64,000 nt of DNA, taken from NCBI RefSeq assembly GCF_009914755.1, contig NC_060938.1; one strand, written 5' to 3'. The translations under genes were made by a program, and so were the position numbers. This DNA comes from the human T2T-CHM13v2.0 reference genome, Homo sapiens. Positions 53,920 through 58,704 of the stretch are shown here, piece by piece. The notes under the pieces were generated by a model. The model did no database searches and was not told where the DNA came from. It was given only the letters and a program-made list of their open reading frames with translations. How positions within the stretch are numbered: the stretch's first letter is position 1; every line of letters begins with the position of its first letter.

Positions 53920-54700
53920 ATTCTAGGCGCCCCACGCAGCGGCCTGGAGCCTGTCCCCAAGTCCAACCAATGGGAGTAGTGTTAAGGGCTCCGCCCTCGA
54001 CTACTTTCCAGCGCTCGGCAAAGCCGCCAGGCCCGCCCACTGACTCCGCGGAGCTGGGTCGCCCCTGTTCTACCCAGATTGGGATGGCAGCGACGCTGAT
54101 CCTGGAGCCCGCGGGCCGCTGCTGCTGGGACGAGCCGCTGCGCATCGCAGTGCGCGGCCTGGCCCCGGAGCAGCCAGTCACGCTGCGCACGTCCCTGCGC
54201 GACGAAGAGGGCGCGCTCTTCCGGGCCCACGCGCGCTACCGTGCCGACGCCCGCGACGAGCTGGACCTGGAGCGCGCGCCCGCGCTGGGAGGCAGCTTCG
54301 CGGGGCTCCAGCCCATGGGGCTGCTGTGGGCGTTGGAGCCCGAGAAAGCCTTGGTGCGGCTGGTGAAGCGCGACGTGCGGACGCCCTTCGCCGTGGAGCT
54401 GGAAGTGCTGGACGGCCACGACACCGAGCCCGGGCGGCTGCTGTGCCTGGCGCAGAACAAGCGCGACTTTCTCCGGCCGGGGGTGCGGCGCGAGCCGGTG
54501 CGCGCGGGCCCGGTGCGCGCCGCGCTCTTCCTGCCGCCGGATGAGTAGTCTGCCCAGAATTTGGTCGAGCTCTGCGACCCCCACCGGCCCCTTTCCTGTC
54601 CTGGGAATCGCGTGATTGTGGAACATCCCTGAACTTGTTCCTTCGCTCCAGAGTCTGTCATGGATTCTGAGTCTGGGCGTCCGCTGTTGCCCAGGCTGGA
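53920..54700 (+). promoter_or_regulatory. ACOT6 promoter/CpG island
   Basis: CCAAT at 53967-53971, GC boxes CCGCCC near 53992 and 54033, CpG-dense exon 1. Confidence 0.65.
54084..54544 (+). CDS. ACOT6: Acyl-CoA thioesterase 6 exon 1; ancestral donor after 54540 is mutated (G|ATGAGT), candidate GT donor at 54545
   Basis: [20 protein letters not shown]...ALFLPPDE; the 457-nt homologous exon is followed by ATGAGTAG. Confidence 0.8.
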
Positions 54701-55086
54701 GTGCCGTGGCTGGATCGTAGCTCACACTGCAGCCTCGAACTCCTGGGCTCAAGTCCTCTCGCCTCAGCCTCCTGAGTAGCTACTCCAGTCTTTCCTTTTT
54801 AAGTTTCACGTCCCTCCCTGGAGGCACCACCACTTTAGCTATGTGCTGAATAGTGCATTCAACTTATTATATATTTATTGAGAGCCACTATGTGCCAGCC
54901 ATGTGGTTTTGTTTGAATACGATATGGGCAAAACCTTAAGCTGATGTGCAAGAAGGATTTTTGCCTCCTTTCACATCAAACTTCCAAAGAAGCTAAAATC
55001 CACAGTATTGGCAATGCCCTTTAATTGTTTAAAAACACACACAAAACTGCCTGACAGTCCTCTCCCTTCTATCATAAACATGCTGT

Positions 55087-55308
55087 ACGTGGTTCTCAAC
55101 CTGCAATGATTAGCCGCCCTCCCTGGGGGAAATTTGGCAATATCTGGAGACATTTGTGGTTGTCATATCTGAAGGGAGAGGTGCTATTGGCATCTAGCAG
55201 GCAGAGGCCAGAGATGCTGCTAAACATTCCACAATGCACAGGACAACCACCAGAACAAAGAATTATCTTGCTGAAAATGTCTGTACTACTGAGGTTGAGG
55301 AACCCTAG
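55087..55308. mobile_element. MER20 hAT-Charlie DNA transposon in ACOT6 intron 1
   Basis: Terminal inverted ends gtggttctcaacc...ggttgaggaaccc and internal tttggcaatatctggagacattt. Confidence 0.85.
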
Positions 55309-58300
55309 TCTAAGTAAACACAGGATGTTTGCTAGGTAAAGGTAGCCCAGAAAGAAGACTCCTGATTAATCCCTTCTAACTAAATTCCTGACTTAAACCT
55401 CTACCATATAAAAATGATGAGCCGGGCACAGTGGCTCAGGCCTGTAATCCCAGCACTTTGGGAGGCTGAGGTGGGCAGATCACTTGAGCCCAGGAGTTCA
55501 AGACCAGCCTGGGCAACATGGTGAAACTCTGTCTCTACAAAAAAAAAAAAAAAAAAAAAAAAATTAGGCAGGCATGGTGGTGCATGCCTGTAGTCCCAGC
55601 TGCTTGGGAGGCTGAGGTGGGAGGATTGTTTGATATCAGGAAGTAGAGGTTGCAGTGAGCTGAGATCACGCCACTGCATTCCAGCCTGGACAACAGAGTG
55701 AAACCCTGCCTCAAACAACAACAACAACAACAAATTCTAGAGTTGCAACAGCACATAGAATCCTTAAACCGAATTCTGTGATTATTCTCCAAAACAAGAA
55801 AACTTGCTTTATTTTTACAGCTCTTCAGCAATTCTTAGCCTTAACTCGTGGCTGCCCACTGTACTGTGAATTCCTGGGGCTGGAATTGGGTCTTACAGAT
55901 TTCTAAATATCCATGTTCCTAGAGGCTTTCGCAAGGATATAGTAGGAGCTCAATAAATCATACTGACTGGGCCAGGCGCAGTGGCTCACACCTGTAATCC
56001 TAGCACTTTGGGAGGCTGAGGTGGGTGGATCACTTGAGGCCAGGAGTTCAAGACTAGCCTGGCCAACATGGCAAAACCCTACCTCTACTAATTATATAAT
56101 ACAAAAAAATTAGCCAGGCATAGTGGCTCACACATGTAGTCCCAGCTACTAGGGAGGCTGAGGTGGGAGAATCGCTTGAACCCGGGAGGCTGAGGTTGCA
56201 GTGAGCCAAGATTGCGCCACTACACTTCAGCCTGGGCGACAGAGCGAGACCCTGTCTCAAAAAAAAAAAAAAAAAAATCACACTGACTAAGAATCAACTA
56301 AAACCTTTCATTAAAAACAAACAAGGAGCCGGGCGCAGTGGCTCACGCCTGTAATCCCAGCACTTTGGGAGGCCGAGGCAGGTGGATCACCTGAGGTCAG
56401 GAGTTCGAGACCAGCCTGACCAACATGGTGAAACCCCGTCTCTACTAAAAATACAAAAGTTAGCCGGGCATGGTGGTGGGTGCCTGTAATCTCAGGAGGC
56501 TGAGGCAGGAGAATCTCTTGAACCCAGGGGGCAGAGGTTGCAGTGAGCCAAGATCGCACCGTTGCACTCCAGCCTGGAGGACAGAGCAAGACTCCATCTC
56601 AAAAAAAAAAACAAGGCGGCCAGGCGCGGTGGCTCACGCCTCTAATCCCGGCACTTTGGGAGGCCAAGGTGGGTGGATCACGAGGTCAGGAGTTCAAGAC
56701 CAGCCTGGCCAAGATGGTGAAACCCTGTCTCTACTAAAAATACAAAAAATTAGCCGGGCATGGTGGCGGGCGCCTGTAATCCCAGCTACTCAGGAGGCTG
56801 AGGCAGGAGAATTGCTTGAACCCGGCAGGTGGAGGTTGCAGTGAGCCAAAATCACACCACATCACTCCAGCCTGGGCAACAGAGAGAGACTCTGTCTGAT
56901 AAAAAAAAAAAAAAAAAAACAAAAAACAAAAAAAACCAGCAACAACGAAAAAAAAAACAAGACTGGGCGCAGTGGCTTACGCCTGTAATCCCAACACTTC
57001 GGGAGGCCAAGGTGGGCGGATCATCTGAGGTCAGGAGTTTGAGACCAGCCTCACCAACATGGTGAAACCCCATCTCTACTAAAAATACAAAATTAGCCAG
57101 GTGTGGTGGCACATGCCTGTAATACCAACTACTCGGGAGGCTGAGGCAGGAGAATCGCTTGAACCCGGGGGGAGACGGAGGTTGCAGTGAGCCGAGATCG
57201 CACCATTGCACTGCAGCCTGGGCAACAAGAGTGAAACCTTGTCTCAACAAACAAACAAACAAACAAACAAACAAACAAACAGGCTGAGTGCAGTGGCTCG
57301 CACTTAAAATCCCAGCACTTGAAGAGGCCGAGGTGGGAGCATTGCAGTGGGAGGATTGCTTGAGGCCAGGAGTTTGAGACTAGCCCAGGCAGCATAGTGA
57401 GACCCTATTTCTATAAAAAGTTAAAAATTAGCCAAGCATAGGGGCCTAGCTACTTGGGAGGGTGGCTTCTTGAGGCTGGAGGGTCACTTGAGCCCAAGGA
57501 TTCAAGGTTACAGTGATCTACAGGCTACAGTGCAGTGGTGTGATCACAGGTCACCACAAACTGGAACTCTTGGGCTCAGATGATCCTCCCGCCTCTTCCT
57601 CCTGAGTAGCTAAGACTATAGGCAAGTGCCATCATGCCCAGCTAGTTTTTTAAACTTTTTTGTAGAGATGGGTCTTGTTATGTTGCCCAGGCTGGTCGTG
57701 AATTCCTGGCCTCAAGTGGTCCTCTTATCTTGACCTCCCAAAGCACTGGGATTATAGGCATGAACCACCACACCTGGCCTCATTATGTTATTTCTAACTT
57801 GGTTTATTTTTGTTTGTGAAAATAATATTATTATTATTATTATTTTTGAGATAGAGTCTCACTCTGTCACCCAGGCTGGAGTGCAGTGGTGTGACAATAA
57901 TTTATATCATTAAAAAGTTTTAGGCCGGTTGCGGTGGCTCACACCTGTAATCGCAGCACTTTGGGAGGCCAAGGTGGGCAGATCACCTGAGGTCAGGAGT
58001 TCAAGACCAGCCTGGCCAACATGGCAAAACCCAGTCTCTACTAAAAATACAAAAAAAATTAGCCGGGTGTCTGTTGCATGTCTGTAATTCCAGATACTTG
58101 GGGGGCTGAGGCAGGAGAATTGCTTGAACCCAGGGGGCAGAGGTTGCAGTGAGCTGAGATTGCACCACTGCACTTCAGCCTGGGCGACAGAGTGAGACTG
58201 TCAAAAAAAAATTTTTTTTTTAATTTCAATACCTTTTGGTGTACAGGTGGTTTGGGGTTACACGGATGAACTGTACAGTGATGAACGCTGAGATTTTAGT

Positions 58301-58505
58301 GCACCTGTCGCCTGAGTAGTATACATTGTACCCAATATGTAGTTTTTTATCCCTCTATATTATCATTATTGTTTGAGAAAATAAGACATTTTGTTCTTTC
58401 TCTGCCAATCTCTCTACCCCCAATCTCCTTGGCTTCAAAAACTTGTTTGCTTACTGTCTTTTGAGAAACTAAAGCTCCCTGTGATTTGTGATGTTCTCCA
58501 GGCAG

Positions 58506-58704
58506 GGGGCCCTTTCCTGGGATCATTGATCTGTTTGGGAGCAGCAGGGGCCTTTGTGAATACAGGGCCAGCCTCCTGGCCGGACATGGTTTTGCTGTGC
58601 TTGCCCTGGCTTATTTCAGATTTGAAGACCTCCCCGAAGATCTGAATGATGTACATCTGGAGTACTTTGAAGAAGCCGTGGACTTTATGCTGCAGCATCC
58701 AAAG
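58506..58704 (+). CDS. ACOT6: ACOT6 exon 2 (ancestral exon start 58502, frame-restoring start 58506); ATG at 58687 begins the 207-aa short form
   Basis: ctccag|gcag|GGGGCCCTTT..., encodes [22 protein letters not shown]...DFMLQHPK, donor AAG|GTGCGT. Confidence 0.88.

What the first reader, a model, noticed from the sequence alone, without database searches (positions are those of the whole stretch)
54530..58510. ACOT6 intron 1 appears to have slid 4 nt at both ends after loss of its GT donor
Seen: ACOT2 and ACOT4 exon 1 end LPP-G|GTGA; ACOT6 has the same 457-nt exon but reads G|ATGAGT (+1 G>A), so the donor is dead and readthrough hits TAG at 54546. A weak GT lies 4 nt downstream (TGA|GTAGTC, 54545). 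Exon 2 has a second AG exactly 4 nt downstream (ccag|gcag|, exon start 58506). Using both gives 461+199=660 nt, the ancestral frame and length: ...LPPDEGPFPG..., 421 aa. Using only one of them frameshifts. Known: human ACOT6 was long described as a truncated 207-aa protein, which matches ATG 58687 (6+201 aa). Inference: a half-rescued gene in which weak compensatory splicing sets how much full-length enzyme is made.
Basis: partly seen in the sequence, partly recalled or inferred. Interest (0 to 1): 0.8.

Follow-up and report, generated by a model that had tools for sequence, protein, structure and literature searches.

The report
Human ACOT6 intron shifted four bases
The first intron of the human ACOT6 gene lost its original start signal and is now cut four bases further along at both ends, which keeps the full enzyme readable, though probably only at a low level in a gene that shows signs of decay.

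Summary
ACOT6 exon 1 aligns without gaps to ACOT2 and ACOT4. Where they read G|GTGA, ACOT6 reads G|ATGAGT. The only nearby GT is 4 nt downstream (54545), and exon 2 has a second CAG 4 nt in (exon start 58506). Using both gives 461+199 = 660 nt and an open 421-codon frame; either alone gives an early stop. The hub's RefSeq table already lists this junction as the selected transcript NM_001365788.1, so the gene model is known.

New here:
- Polarity: a macaque read-through model ends ...LPPGE*, so macaque keeps G at the donor.
- 72 of 73 non-human orthologues have Gly at the split codon.
- The used donor matches 3 of 9 consensus positions, the dead one 6 of 9.
- Human ACOT6 carries 5 of the 45 unique departures from otherwise invariant residues among 74 orthologues (p = 0.0005), which suggests relaxed constraint.
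- A 2020 survey found no convincing primate intron sliding and does not list ACOT6.

Verdict: a real, polarised 4-nt intron slide. It is probably a partial rescue rather than a maintained function. Junction usage could not be measured.

The parts
54084..54540 (+). ACOT6 exon 1 coding sequence up to the ancestral exon end (457 nt); encodes the N-terminal Bile_Hydr_Trans domain
   Evidence: Same length as ACOT4 exon 1 CDS, with an ungapped alignment to ACOT2 and ACOT4. Pfam PF04775 matches residues 16-140, E = 2e-37.
54541..54541 (+). Derived A at the former donor +1 (G in ACOT2, ACOT4 and, by inference, macaque ACOT6); T2T-CHM13 chr14:67,820,541 computed from the hub's window coordinates
   Evidence: Macaque read-through model P0001 ends ...LPPGE*, whereas human reads ...LPPDE*; Gly is GGN and Asp is GAY.
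54541..54544 (+). ATGA: four former intron bases that are now the last bases of exon 1
   Evidence: The exon end 54544 of NM_001365788.1 comes from the hub table. Sequence.
54545..54550 (+). Donor now used, tga|GTAGTC; its GT was +5/+6 of the ancestral donor
   Evidence: It matches 3 of 9 positions of CAG|GUAAGU, with predicted U1 duplex -4.1 kcal/mol. The ancestral register keeps 6 of 9 and -7.2. No GT with more than 5 of 9 matches lies within the next 200 nt.
54546..54548 (+). TAG that ends the unspliced (read-through) frame after 154 codons
58500..58501 (+). Ancestral acceptor AG (ctcCAG|g), still annotated as used by another RefSeq transcript (exon 58502-58704)
   Evidence: hub table.
58502..58505 (+). 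GCAG: four former exon bases that are now the last bases of the intron. The AG at 58504-58505 is the acceptor of the selected transcript. G 58505 is probably derived (AAG Lys to AGG)
   Evidence: Marmoset and mouse lemur ACOT6 read LPPGKGP. The codon change is inferred from proteins only.
58506..58704 (+). Exon 2 as used in NM_001365788.1 (199 nt)
   Evidence: Hub table. Translation stays in frame only with donor 54544.
58527..58529 (+). Premature stop reached when donor 54544 is joined to the ancestral acceptor 58502; it lies 175 nt before the last exon junction
   Evidence: The nonsense-mediated-decay (NMD) rule of about 50-55 nt is established knowledge, recalled.
58687..58689 (+). ATG of the 207-aa ORF long given as 'ACOT6'
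   Evidence: 207 aa. Its context is TTTATGC. It is preceded by 7 upstream ATGs in the 4-exon variant and 4 in the variant starting at 58356, and two of those uORFs overlap it.
60746..61351 (+). Exon 3 coding sequence (201 codons plus stop); most of the BAAT_C hydrolase domain, including Ser232, Asp326 and His360
   Evidence: Pfam PF08840, E = 4e-76. The three residues are invariant in 50 orthologues and kept in human.

Best explanation
Intron 1 of human ACOT6 has moved 4 nt downstream at both ends, relative to its position in the paralogues ACOT2 and ACOT4 and in other mammals' ACOT6.

Shown:
- The donor GT became AT (G>A at 54541).
- Macaque still has G there, so the change is younger than the human-macaque split.
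- The GT that was +5/+6 of the old donor is the only canonical donor left nearby.
- An AG lies exactly 4 nt inside exon 2.
- Only the pair 54544>58506 (or the non-canonical 54540>58502) keeps the 421-codon frame.
- The two residues affected (Gly-Arg become Asp-Glu) include the most variable position of an otherwise conserved stretch between the two Pfam domains.

Taken from the hub's annotation: 54544>58506 is the RefSeq selected transcript, and the old acceptor 58502 is still used by a transcript that starts at upstream non-coding exons.

Inferred:
- The new AG arose by AAG>AGG at 58505.
- U1 snRNA is probably still recruited by the remnant of the old donor (6 of 9 matches), and cleavage falls on the nearest GU.
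- Both AGs are CAG|G, and the upstream one is still used. A good share of exon-1 transcripts should therefore join 58502, hit a stop at 58527 and be degraded, so output of full-length enzyme is low.
- The gene as a whole is under relaxed constraint in the human lineage, so the rescue is more likely fortuitous and partial than selected.
For: Sequence and frames.

Polarity:
- Macaque model P0001 ends LPPGE* against human LPPDE*.
- Gly is at the split codon in 72 of 73 non-human orthologues of a 74-tip ACOT6 clade with support 0.971.

Tolerance of the change:
- Position 154 has 9 residue types among orthologues, and Glu occurs in 11 of 73.
- The junction lies after PF04775 and before PF08840.
- A low-confidence model of the mouse lemur orthologue (mean pLDDT 63) puts the junction in a loop between strands 187-193 and 202-205.

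Weak sites:
- The donor matches 3 of 9, against 7 of 9 for the paralogues; the ancestral register keeps 6 of 9 and a U1 duplex of -7.2 against -4.1 kcal/mol.
- The pyrimidine tract is 13 of 20 and 11 of 20, against 14-20 of 20 for the other five acceptors.

Out-of-frame product: stop at 58527, 175 nt before the last junction.

Relaxed constraint:
- Human holds 5 of the 45 columns where one of 74 orthologues departs from an otherwise invariant residue, with 1.4% of terminal branch length; binomial p = 0.0005.
- Human against macaque exon 1: 15 of 153 residues differ (9 human-derived, 4 macaque-derived, 2 ambiguous). ACOT4 exon 1 differs at 5 of 152.

Full-length ORF as the natural reading: ATG 54084 has context GGGATGG and no upstream ATG. 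The 207-aa ATG has 4-7 upstream ATGs.
Against: - No junction read counts, proteomics or population data could be consulted. Use of 54544>58506 rests entirely on the hub's RefSeq table.
- The 2020 survey read shows that many annotated 4-nt slides in mammals were frame-preserving annotation artefacts.
- Polarity rests on a single macaque read-through model. No ape sequence and no catarrhine full-length ACOT6 was found in three protein searches, and the human 421-aa protein itself was not returned either.
- The AAG>AGG step is inferred from two primate proteins, one of them flagged LOW QUALITY.
- Exon 2 shows only 1 human-only change in 66 residues, and exons 2-3 together show 7 of 267 against 10 of 269 in ACOT4. 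That looks constrained rather than decaying.
- The excess at invariant sites is a post hoc test on FastTree branch lengths.
- The exon-1 versus exon-3 contrast with ACOT4 (10 and 6 against 3 and 8) is a small-number trend that I did not test formally.
Confidence: 0.62

Rival explanations
1. Annotation-driven frame rescue. Exon 1 of human ACOT6 is effectively dead. Transcripts from it are unspliced, mis-spliced or degraded, and the 54544>58506 junction is rare splicing noise that curators chose because it gives the longest ORF. For the full-length enzyme ACOT6 is functionally a unitary pseudogene.
For: - The donor matches only 3 of 9 consensus positions.
- The ancestral AG is still annotated as used (hub table).
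- Reviews say no full-length ACOT6 has been detected (passages).
- A 2025 study still expresses NM_001037162.1 (passage).
- Human has an excess of hits at invariant residues.
- No catarrhine full-length ACOT6 appears in the protein database.
- The marmoset orthologue is flagged LOW QUALITY.
- Most annotated 4-nt slides in the 2020 survey proved to be artefacts.
Against: - The transcript carries an NM_ accession and is the selected one of three (hub table). To my knowledge, recalled, that implies transcript support.
- The 421-codon frame is still open.
- Exon 2, which lies outside the 207-aa ORF except for its last 6 codons, has only 1 human-only change in 66 residues.
- The alternative 207-aa ORF is badly placed for translation.
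Confidence: 0.25
2. Selected compensation. After, or together with, the donor loss, the A>G at 58505 was fixed because it re-opened the frame. Human ACOT6 is then a functional 421-aa peroxisomal thioesterase maintained by selection.
For: - The ORF is intact, and Ser232, Asp326 and His360 and the C-terminal SKI are kept.
- Exon 2 is conserved.
- The change falls on variable linker positions.
- ATG 54084 has a good context.
Against: - Five unique substitutions fall at residues invariant in 73 other orthologues, including G58D, G168R, G227A and G316V.
- Both splice sites are weak.
- A chance AG at that position is not improbable (about 1 in 16).
- The order of the two substitutions is unknown.
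Confidence: 0.13
3. The intron is still removed at its ancestral boundaries as a non-canonical AT-AG intron (54540>58502), giving ...[10 protein letters not shown]... in frame.
For: That combination is also open for 421 codons. The ancestral register keeps 6 of 9 U1 matches.
Against: - AT-AG is very rare for U2-type introns (recalled).
- The intron start ATGAGT does not resemble the U12 donor ATATCC (motif recalled).
- RefSeq lists no exon ending at 54540 (hub table).
Confidence: 0.02

Closest known systems
Intron sliding: both intron boundaries relocate by the same few bases with coding length kept. Surveyed in mammals by Poverennaya et al. 2020, PMC7730772 (abstract, Results, Methods and Table S1 read).
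   Same: Both boundaries move 4 nt in the same direction, GT-AG is kept and coding length is unchanged. In that survey 4 bp was the commonest candidate distance, 12 of 30.
   Different: - The ancestral donor is visibly destroyed, so the slide is not an arbitrary annotation choice.
- Two paralogues in the same window and a macaque read-through give the ancestral state.
- The survey reported no significant evidence in primates, and ACOT6 is not in its Table S1.
- Its pipeline took the transcript with most introns per gene. By my inference that would have been the 4-exon ACOT6 variant, which lacks this intron.
Activation of a cryptic donor 4 nt downstream after a +1 G>A donor mutation (common in human disease genetics; recalled, not looked up)
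   Same: The first step is the same: the GT at +5/+6 of GTRAGT becomes the donor and shifts the frame by +4.
   Different: In disease alleles the result is a frameshift. Here an AG 4 nt into the next exon cancels it.
Tandem alternative splice sites (NAGNAG acceptors, closely spaced donors; recalled)
   Same: Two CAG|G acceptors lie 4 nt apart, and both are annotated as used (hub table).
   Different: The spacing is 4 rather than 3, so the choice decides the frame. The frame is correct only in combination with the shifted donor.
Recognition of a 5' splice site by U1 in one register with cleavage at a nearby GU (shifted-register and U6-defined cleavage work; recalled)
   Same: The dead donor keeps better U1 complementarity (6 of 9, -7.2 kcal/mol) than the GU actually used (3 of 9, -4.1).
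   Different: This is a hypothesis only. Nothing here tests where U1 binds.
Type-I acyl-CoA thioesterases: ACOT1/2/4 and mouse Acot6. Solved structures 3HLK and 3K2I. Mouse ACOT6 acts on phytanoyl- and pristanoyl-CoA according to the passage citing Westin 2007 in PMC7106852.
   Same: Same three-exon structure, the same two Pfam domains, and Ser, Asp and His conserved. Exon 1 aligns to 3HLK and 3K2I at E = 2e-81 and 2e-75.
   Different: Human ACOT6 has the shifted intron, Asp-Glu at the junction and five unique changes at otherwise invariant residues. Its activity is untested.

Membership tests
Intron sliding | The intron is homologous to one at a fixed ancestral position | tested here: met
   Ungapped DNA alignment of exon 1 ends and exon 2 starts of ACOT2, ACOT4 and ACOT6. 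Ancestral exon lengths are identical, 457 and 203 nt.
Intron sliding | Both boundaries are displaced by the same distance in the same direction, with no indel and coding length kept | tested here: met
   +4 at the donor (54540 to 54544) and +4 at the acceptor (58502 to 58506). 461+199 = 457+203 = 660 nt. The exon 1 and exon 2 paralogue alignments have zero gaps.
Intron sliding | Direction of change is known (derived against ancestral) | tested here: met
   Macaque ACOT6 exon 1 read-through ends GE* against human DE*. Gly is at the split codon in 72 of 73 non-human orthologues. This rests on one Old World monkey model only, and no ape data were available.
Intron sliding | The new junction is supported by transcripts | not testable with these tools
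   Only the hub's RefSeq table (NM_001365788.1, selected) is available. No RNA-seq, EST or long-read data were reachable.
Type-I acyl-CoA thioesterase (BAAT/ACOT family) | An N-terminal Bile_Hydr_Trans domain plus a C-terminal BAAT_C alpha/beta-hydrolase domain | tested here: met
   PF04775 E = 2e-37 in exon 1. PF08840 E = 4e-76 in exon 3, with its first 18 profile positions in exon 2 (E = 6e-4, just below the curated cut-off taken alone).
Type-I acyl-CoA thioesterase (BAAT/ACOT family) | Ser-Asp-His residues conserved (their role as the catalytic triad is recalled, not tested) | tested here: met
   Human Ser232 (within G-x-S-x-G), Asp326 and His360 align with residues invariant in 50 of 50 orthologues and present in ACOT2 and ACOT4.
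Type-I acyl-CoA thioesterase (BAAT/ACOT family) | Thioesterase activity of the human 421-aa protein | not testable with these tools
   A 2024 review says no full-length enzyme has been detected (passage).
U12-type (AT-AC) intron | ATATCC-like donor and AC (or AG) terminus with a U12 branch site | tested here: not met
   The intron begins ATGAGTAGTC, which does not resemble the U12 donor motif (motif recalled).
Unitary pseudogene | A disabling lesion with no open full-length frame | tested here: not met
   A 421-codon frame is open through 54544>58506. Relaxed constraint is nevertheless indicated.

The most novel reading that the evidence does not exclude
Two transitions in the human lineage, G>A at 54541 and A>G at 58505, moved a phase-1 intron by 4 nt and kept or re-opened a 421-aa peroxisomal thioesterase that the literature still treats as a 207-aa stump. 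If the junction is used at a meaningful level, this is a clean, polarised primate example of intron sliding, a process whose existence in mammals has been doubted. It would also be a case of gene rescue by paired cryptic splice sites.
Probability: 0.35. Interest if true: 0.7.

Novelty: new member of a known kind. Interest (0 to 1): 0.5.

Why it matters
- Intron sliding has been debated for decades. The 2020 mammalian survey read here found no convincing primate case. ACOT6 offers one in which the causal base change, the ancestral state (two paralogues in the same window and a macaque model) and the compensating site are all visible. It can be tested with existing RNA-seq and primate genomes.
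- Passages in papers from 2017, 2024 and 2025 still describe or use human ACOT6 as a truncated or undetected protein. The 207-aa ORF is poorly placed for translation, while the 421-aa ORF has a clean start. Experiments with the short cDNA may therefore not reflect the gene's real product.
- The excess of changes at invariant residues bears on whether humans retain this peroxisomal activity at all.

Tried and rejected
- Dating the G>A within apes. They returned no ape or other catarrhine protein carrying ACOT6 exon 2 or a full-length ACOT6, and not the human 421-aa protein either. Only a macaque ACOT4-ACOT6 exon 1 read-through model helped.
- Literature. Hunt et al. 2006 (PMID 16940157) and Brocker et al. 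2010 (PMC3525216 and its DOI) are not held. Whether they already describe the dead donor is therefore unknown; I recall only that the 2006 abstract counts three full-length human genes.
- Searches for ACOT6 with 'splice', 'truncated', 'exon' or 'gene cluster' gave listings with nothing on this junction, and I read passages of only some of the listed papers. 'human ACOT6' and the accession search gave no paper at all.
- The ENST and NP identifiers were recalled and may be wrong.
- One search was badly framed (any 2 of 6 terms) and returned nothing relevant. One search found nothing.
- Exon-wise relative-rate tests point to faster change in exon 1 but are small-number trends. Marmoset exon 1 is fast too.
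- AT-AG and U12 readings were rejected on sequence grounds.
- The structure prediction of the mouse lemur orthologue was mediocre (mean pLDDT 63, junction region 39-61). I use it only as weak support for a loop.
- No MaxEnt-type splice score could be computed, because the models are not on the machine. Consensus matches and U1 duplex energies were used instead.

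
Full report
**What is there**

I read the ends of exon 1 and the starts of exon 2 of the three type-I thioesterase genes in the window and aligned them. The alignments need no gaps.

- At the exon 1 end, ACOT2 reads CCGCCAG|GTGACT, ACOT4 reads CCGCCAG|GTGAGC and ACOT6 reads CCGCCGG|ATGAGTAGTC. Base 54541 is an A where both paralogues have the G of the donor GT.
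- ACOT6 coding exon 1 up to that point is 457 nt, exactly as in ACOT4.
- The unspliced frame ends at TAG 54546.
- The next GT is at 54545. It was the +5/+6 GT of the old GTGAGT-type donor.
- At exon 2, ACOT2 has CCCAAG|AACCTGGGCCC, ACOT4 has CTCTAG|GACCTGGACCC and ACOT6 has CTCCAG|GCAG|GGGGCCC. Only ACOT6 has a second AG, ending 4 nt inside the ancestral 203-nt exon.

Translating the four combinations gives:

| Junction | Result |
|---|---|
| 54544>58506 | open for 421 codons, ...[18 protein letters not shown]... |
| 54544>58502 | stop at codon 163 |
| 54540>58506 | stop at codon 199 |
| 54540>58502 | open (…[10 protein letters not shown]…) but would need an AT-AG intron |

ATG 58687 plus exon 3 gives 207 aa.

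**What is already known**

The hub's RefSeq table lists exons 54029-54544, 58506-58704 and 60746-61400 as the selected transcript NM_001365788.1. The slid junction is therefore already the reference gene model. The table also lists an exon 58502-58704 in another transcript, so the ancestral acceptor is still regarded as used, with upstream non-coding exons 52457-52553 and 53028-53109.

The literature I could reach has not caught up:

- A 2017 paper says ACOT6 mRNA is not detected and only a truncated protein could be expressed (passage).
- A 2024 review lists the protein as not detected and says no full-length enzyme has been found (passages).
- A 2025 functional study expresses NM_001037162.1, the 207-aa form (passage).
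- No paper in the library contains NM_001365788.
- The listings from searches for ACOT6 with splice, truncated, exon or gene cluster showed nothing about this junction, and I read passages of only some of the listed papers.

The two papers most likely to have commented on the dead donor, Hunt 2006 and Brocker 2010, are not held. I cannot say whether the donor loss itself is in print.

**Polarity**

The protein database holds mammalian proteins.

- A macaque TrEMBL model (P0001) is an ACOT4-ACOT6 read-through. Its last 154 residues are ACOT6 exon 1 and end ...[11 protein letters not shown] followed by the stop. Human exon 1 read-through gives ...LPPDE and the stop. Gly needs G at the second codon base and Asp needs A, so macaque has G at the position of 54541. 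That is consistent with an intact G|GTGAGTAG. The G>A is therefore younger than the human-macaque split, or at least absent from macaque.
- In a tree of 159 full-length type-I ACOTs, human ACOT6 sits in a 74-tip ACOT6 clade (support 0.971) next to marmoset (0.998).
- In that clade the split codon is Gly in 72 of 73 non-human sequences; pig has Asp.
- The following residue is the most variable of the region: 9 types, with Ala 21, Ser 17, Glu 11, Met 9, Lys 6.
- Both non-human primates with data (marmoset, mouse lemur) and four rodents have Lys there. With the ancestral acceptor, human would read Arg (AGG). The simplest history is AAG>AGG at 58505, which also creates the new AG.

The AAG>AGG step is inferred from proteins only. 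The marmoset entry is flagged LOW QUALITY.

**Why the protein tolerates it**

- The slide replaces Gly-Arg (ancestrally Gly-Lys) by Asp-Glu and changes nothing else.
- The site lies after the N-terminal Pfam domain (PF04775, residues 16-140) and before the BAAT_C match.
- In a mediocre AlphaFold model of the mouse lemur orthologue it falls in a loop between strands 187-193 and 202-205. Mean pLDDT is 63 and the local blocks are 61 and 39, so this is weak support only.

**How it probably works**

- The used donor tga|GTAGTC matches 3 of 9 positions of CAG|GUAAGU. The ACOT2 and ACOT4 exon 1 donors each match 7 of 9.
- The dead donor register cgg|AUGAGU still matches 6 of 9. Its predicted duplex with the U1 5' end is -7.2 kcal/mol against -4.1 for the used register. 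That is within the range of the functional exon 2 donors of the three genes (-5.6 to -6.8).
- No other GT within 200 nt is better than 5 of 9.
- My inference is that U1 is still recruited by the old site and the cut falls on the nearest GU.
- On the acceptor side both AGs are CAG|G behind a poor pyrimidine tract, 13 and 11 of 20 against 14-20 of 20 for the other five acceptors.
- Because the upstream AG is still annotated as used, a good part of exon 1 transcripts should join 58502. They would reach the stop at 58527, 175 nt before the last junction, and be removed by nonsense-mediated decay (rule recalled).

That would make the full-length mRNA a minority product. None of this could be measured here.

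**Is the gene maintained?**

For:
- The 421-codon frame is open.
- Ser232, Asp326 and His360, and the C-terminal SKI, are kept.
- Exon 2, of which only the last 6 codons belong to the 207-aa ORF, has 1 human-only change in 66 residues.
- Exons 2-3 have 7 human-only changes in 267, against 10 in 269 for ACOT4 in a comparable three-taxon test.
- ATG 54084 has a good context and no upstream ATG. The 207-aa ATG (TTTATGC) sits behind 7 or 4 upstream ATGs, two with overlapping uORFs.

Against:
- Among the 74 orthologues there are 45 columns where exactly one sequence departs from an otherwise invariant residue. Human accounts for 5 of them (G58D, E76Q, G168R, G227A, G316V), more than any other sequence (the next have 3). 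Human has 1.4% of the summed terminal branch length, giving binomial p = 0.0005. This is a post hoc test on FastTree branch lengths.
- Human and macaque ACOT6 exon 1 differ at 15 of 153 residues: 9 human-derived, 4 macaque-derived and 2 ambiguous. ACOT4 exon 1 differs at 5 of 152.
- Human-only changes are 10 of 151 in exon 1 against 6 of 201 in exon 3. ACOT4 shows 3 of 152 and 8 of 201. This is a trend only.
- No catarrhine full-length ACOT6 appears among the listed hits of three searches, although catarrhine ACOT1, ACOT2 and ACOT4 do.

I read this as relaxed constraint in the lineage leading to humans. The rescue is therefore more likely partial and fortuitous than selected.

**Comparison with what is known**

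The case fits the definition of intron sliding used by Poverennaya et al. 2020: both boundaries shifted by the same distance, at most 5 bp. That study reported no significant evidence in primates and judged most annotated slides to be artefacts. 4 bp was the commonest candidate distance, 12 of 30. ACOT6 is absent from its Table S1. Its pipeline used the transcript with most introns per gene. For ACOT6 that would, by my inference, be the 4-exon variant lacking this intron.

What sets ACOT6 apart from those artefacts is that the ancestral donor is mutated, so no canonical alternative exists at the old position. The first step, a +1 G>A activating the GT 4 nt downstream, is a familiar kind of splice mutation (recalled). 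The unusual part is the matching AG.

**Verdict**

The gene model is already annotated. The evolutionary reading, a polarised 4-nt intron slide in the human lineage, did not turn up in anything I could search and is well supported at the sequence level. The functional reading (how much full-length enzyme is made, and whether it was selected) is open, with evidence leaning towards a weak, partial rescue in a decaying gene.

Noticed in passing
window 10937-11393, 33470-33926, 54084-54540: Exon 1 of ACOT2, ACOT4 and ACOT6 is 87-90% identical in DNA with no gaps. Exons 2 and 3 are only 62-74% identical. Exon 1 is 72-75% GC with 60-71 CpGs. Human ACOT6 exon 1 protein is also closer to primate ACOT1 and ACOT2 (84-87%) than to most non-primate ACOT6 (76-80%). 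This suggests concerted evolution or gene conversion confined to the CpG-island first exons.
   Followed up: partly
window 58586-58689 and 52463-53082: The 207-aa ORF start (58687, context TTTATGC) is preceded by 7 upstream ATGs in the 4-exon variant and 4 in the variant starting at 58356. These include GACATGG at 58586 and two uORFs (58646, 58649) that run past the main ATG into exon 3. The short protein looks like a poor translation product.
   Followed up: yes
P0001 (macaque), P0003 (baboon), P0004 (green monkey), P0002, P0121-P0123: Many database entries are chimeric read-through models that join neighbouring ACOT genes (ACOT4-ACOT6 exon 1, ACOT2-ACOT4 and others).
   Followed up: partly
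P0102, P0115, P0161, P0225, P0230: Several ACOT6-like proteins of other mammals are named dynein light chain 1 (DNAL1) isoforms or carry leucine-rich-repeat Pfam domains. This points to ACOT6-DNAL1 read-through models; DNAL1 is the next protein-coding gene after ACOT6 in the hub table.
   Followed up: no
human ACOT6 residue 168 (window about 58546-58548): G168R changes the Gly-rich FGSGGG loop to FGSSRG. That column is Gly in 152 of 159 type-I ACOTs. It could impair the hydrolase even if the full-length protein is made.
   Followed up: partly
P0124 (marmoset ACOT6): The only anthropoid full-length ACOT6 found besides human is flagged LOW QUALITY PROTEIN and is 422 aa. It has an aberrant stretch near residue 30 and 16 marmoset-only changes in exon 1. 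ACOT6 may be decaying in several anthropoid lineages.
   Followed up: partly
ACOT6 locus, minus strand: A long-read study of human liver lists an antisense transcript to ACOT6 (ENSG00000258603, 'ACOT6-AS1') (passage).
   Followed up: no
window 58453, 58484, 58491: There is only one yUnAy branch-like motif (CTTAC, A at 58453) in the last 80 nt of intron 1. Two AGs (58464, 58473) lie between it and the acceptors. Relaxed GTGAT motifs have their A at 58484 and 58491; the latter is only about 10 nt before the first acceptor AG, which might favour the downstream AG. This is speculative.
   Followed up: no
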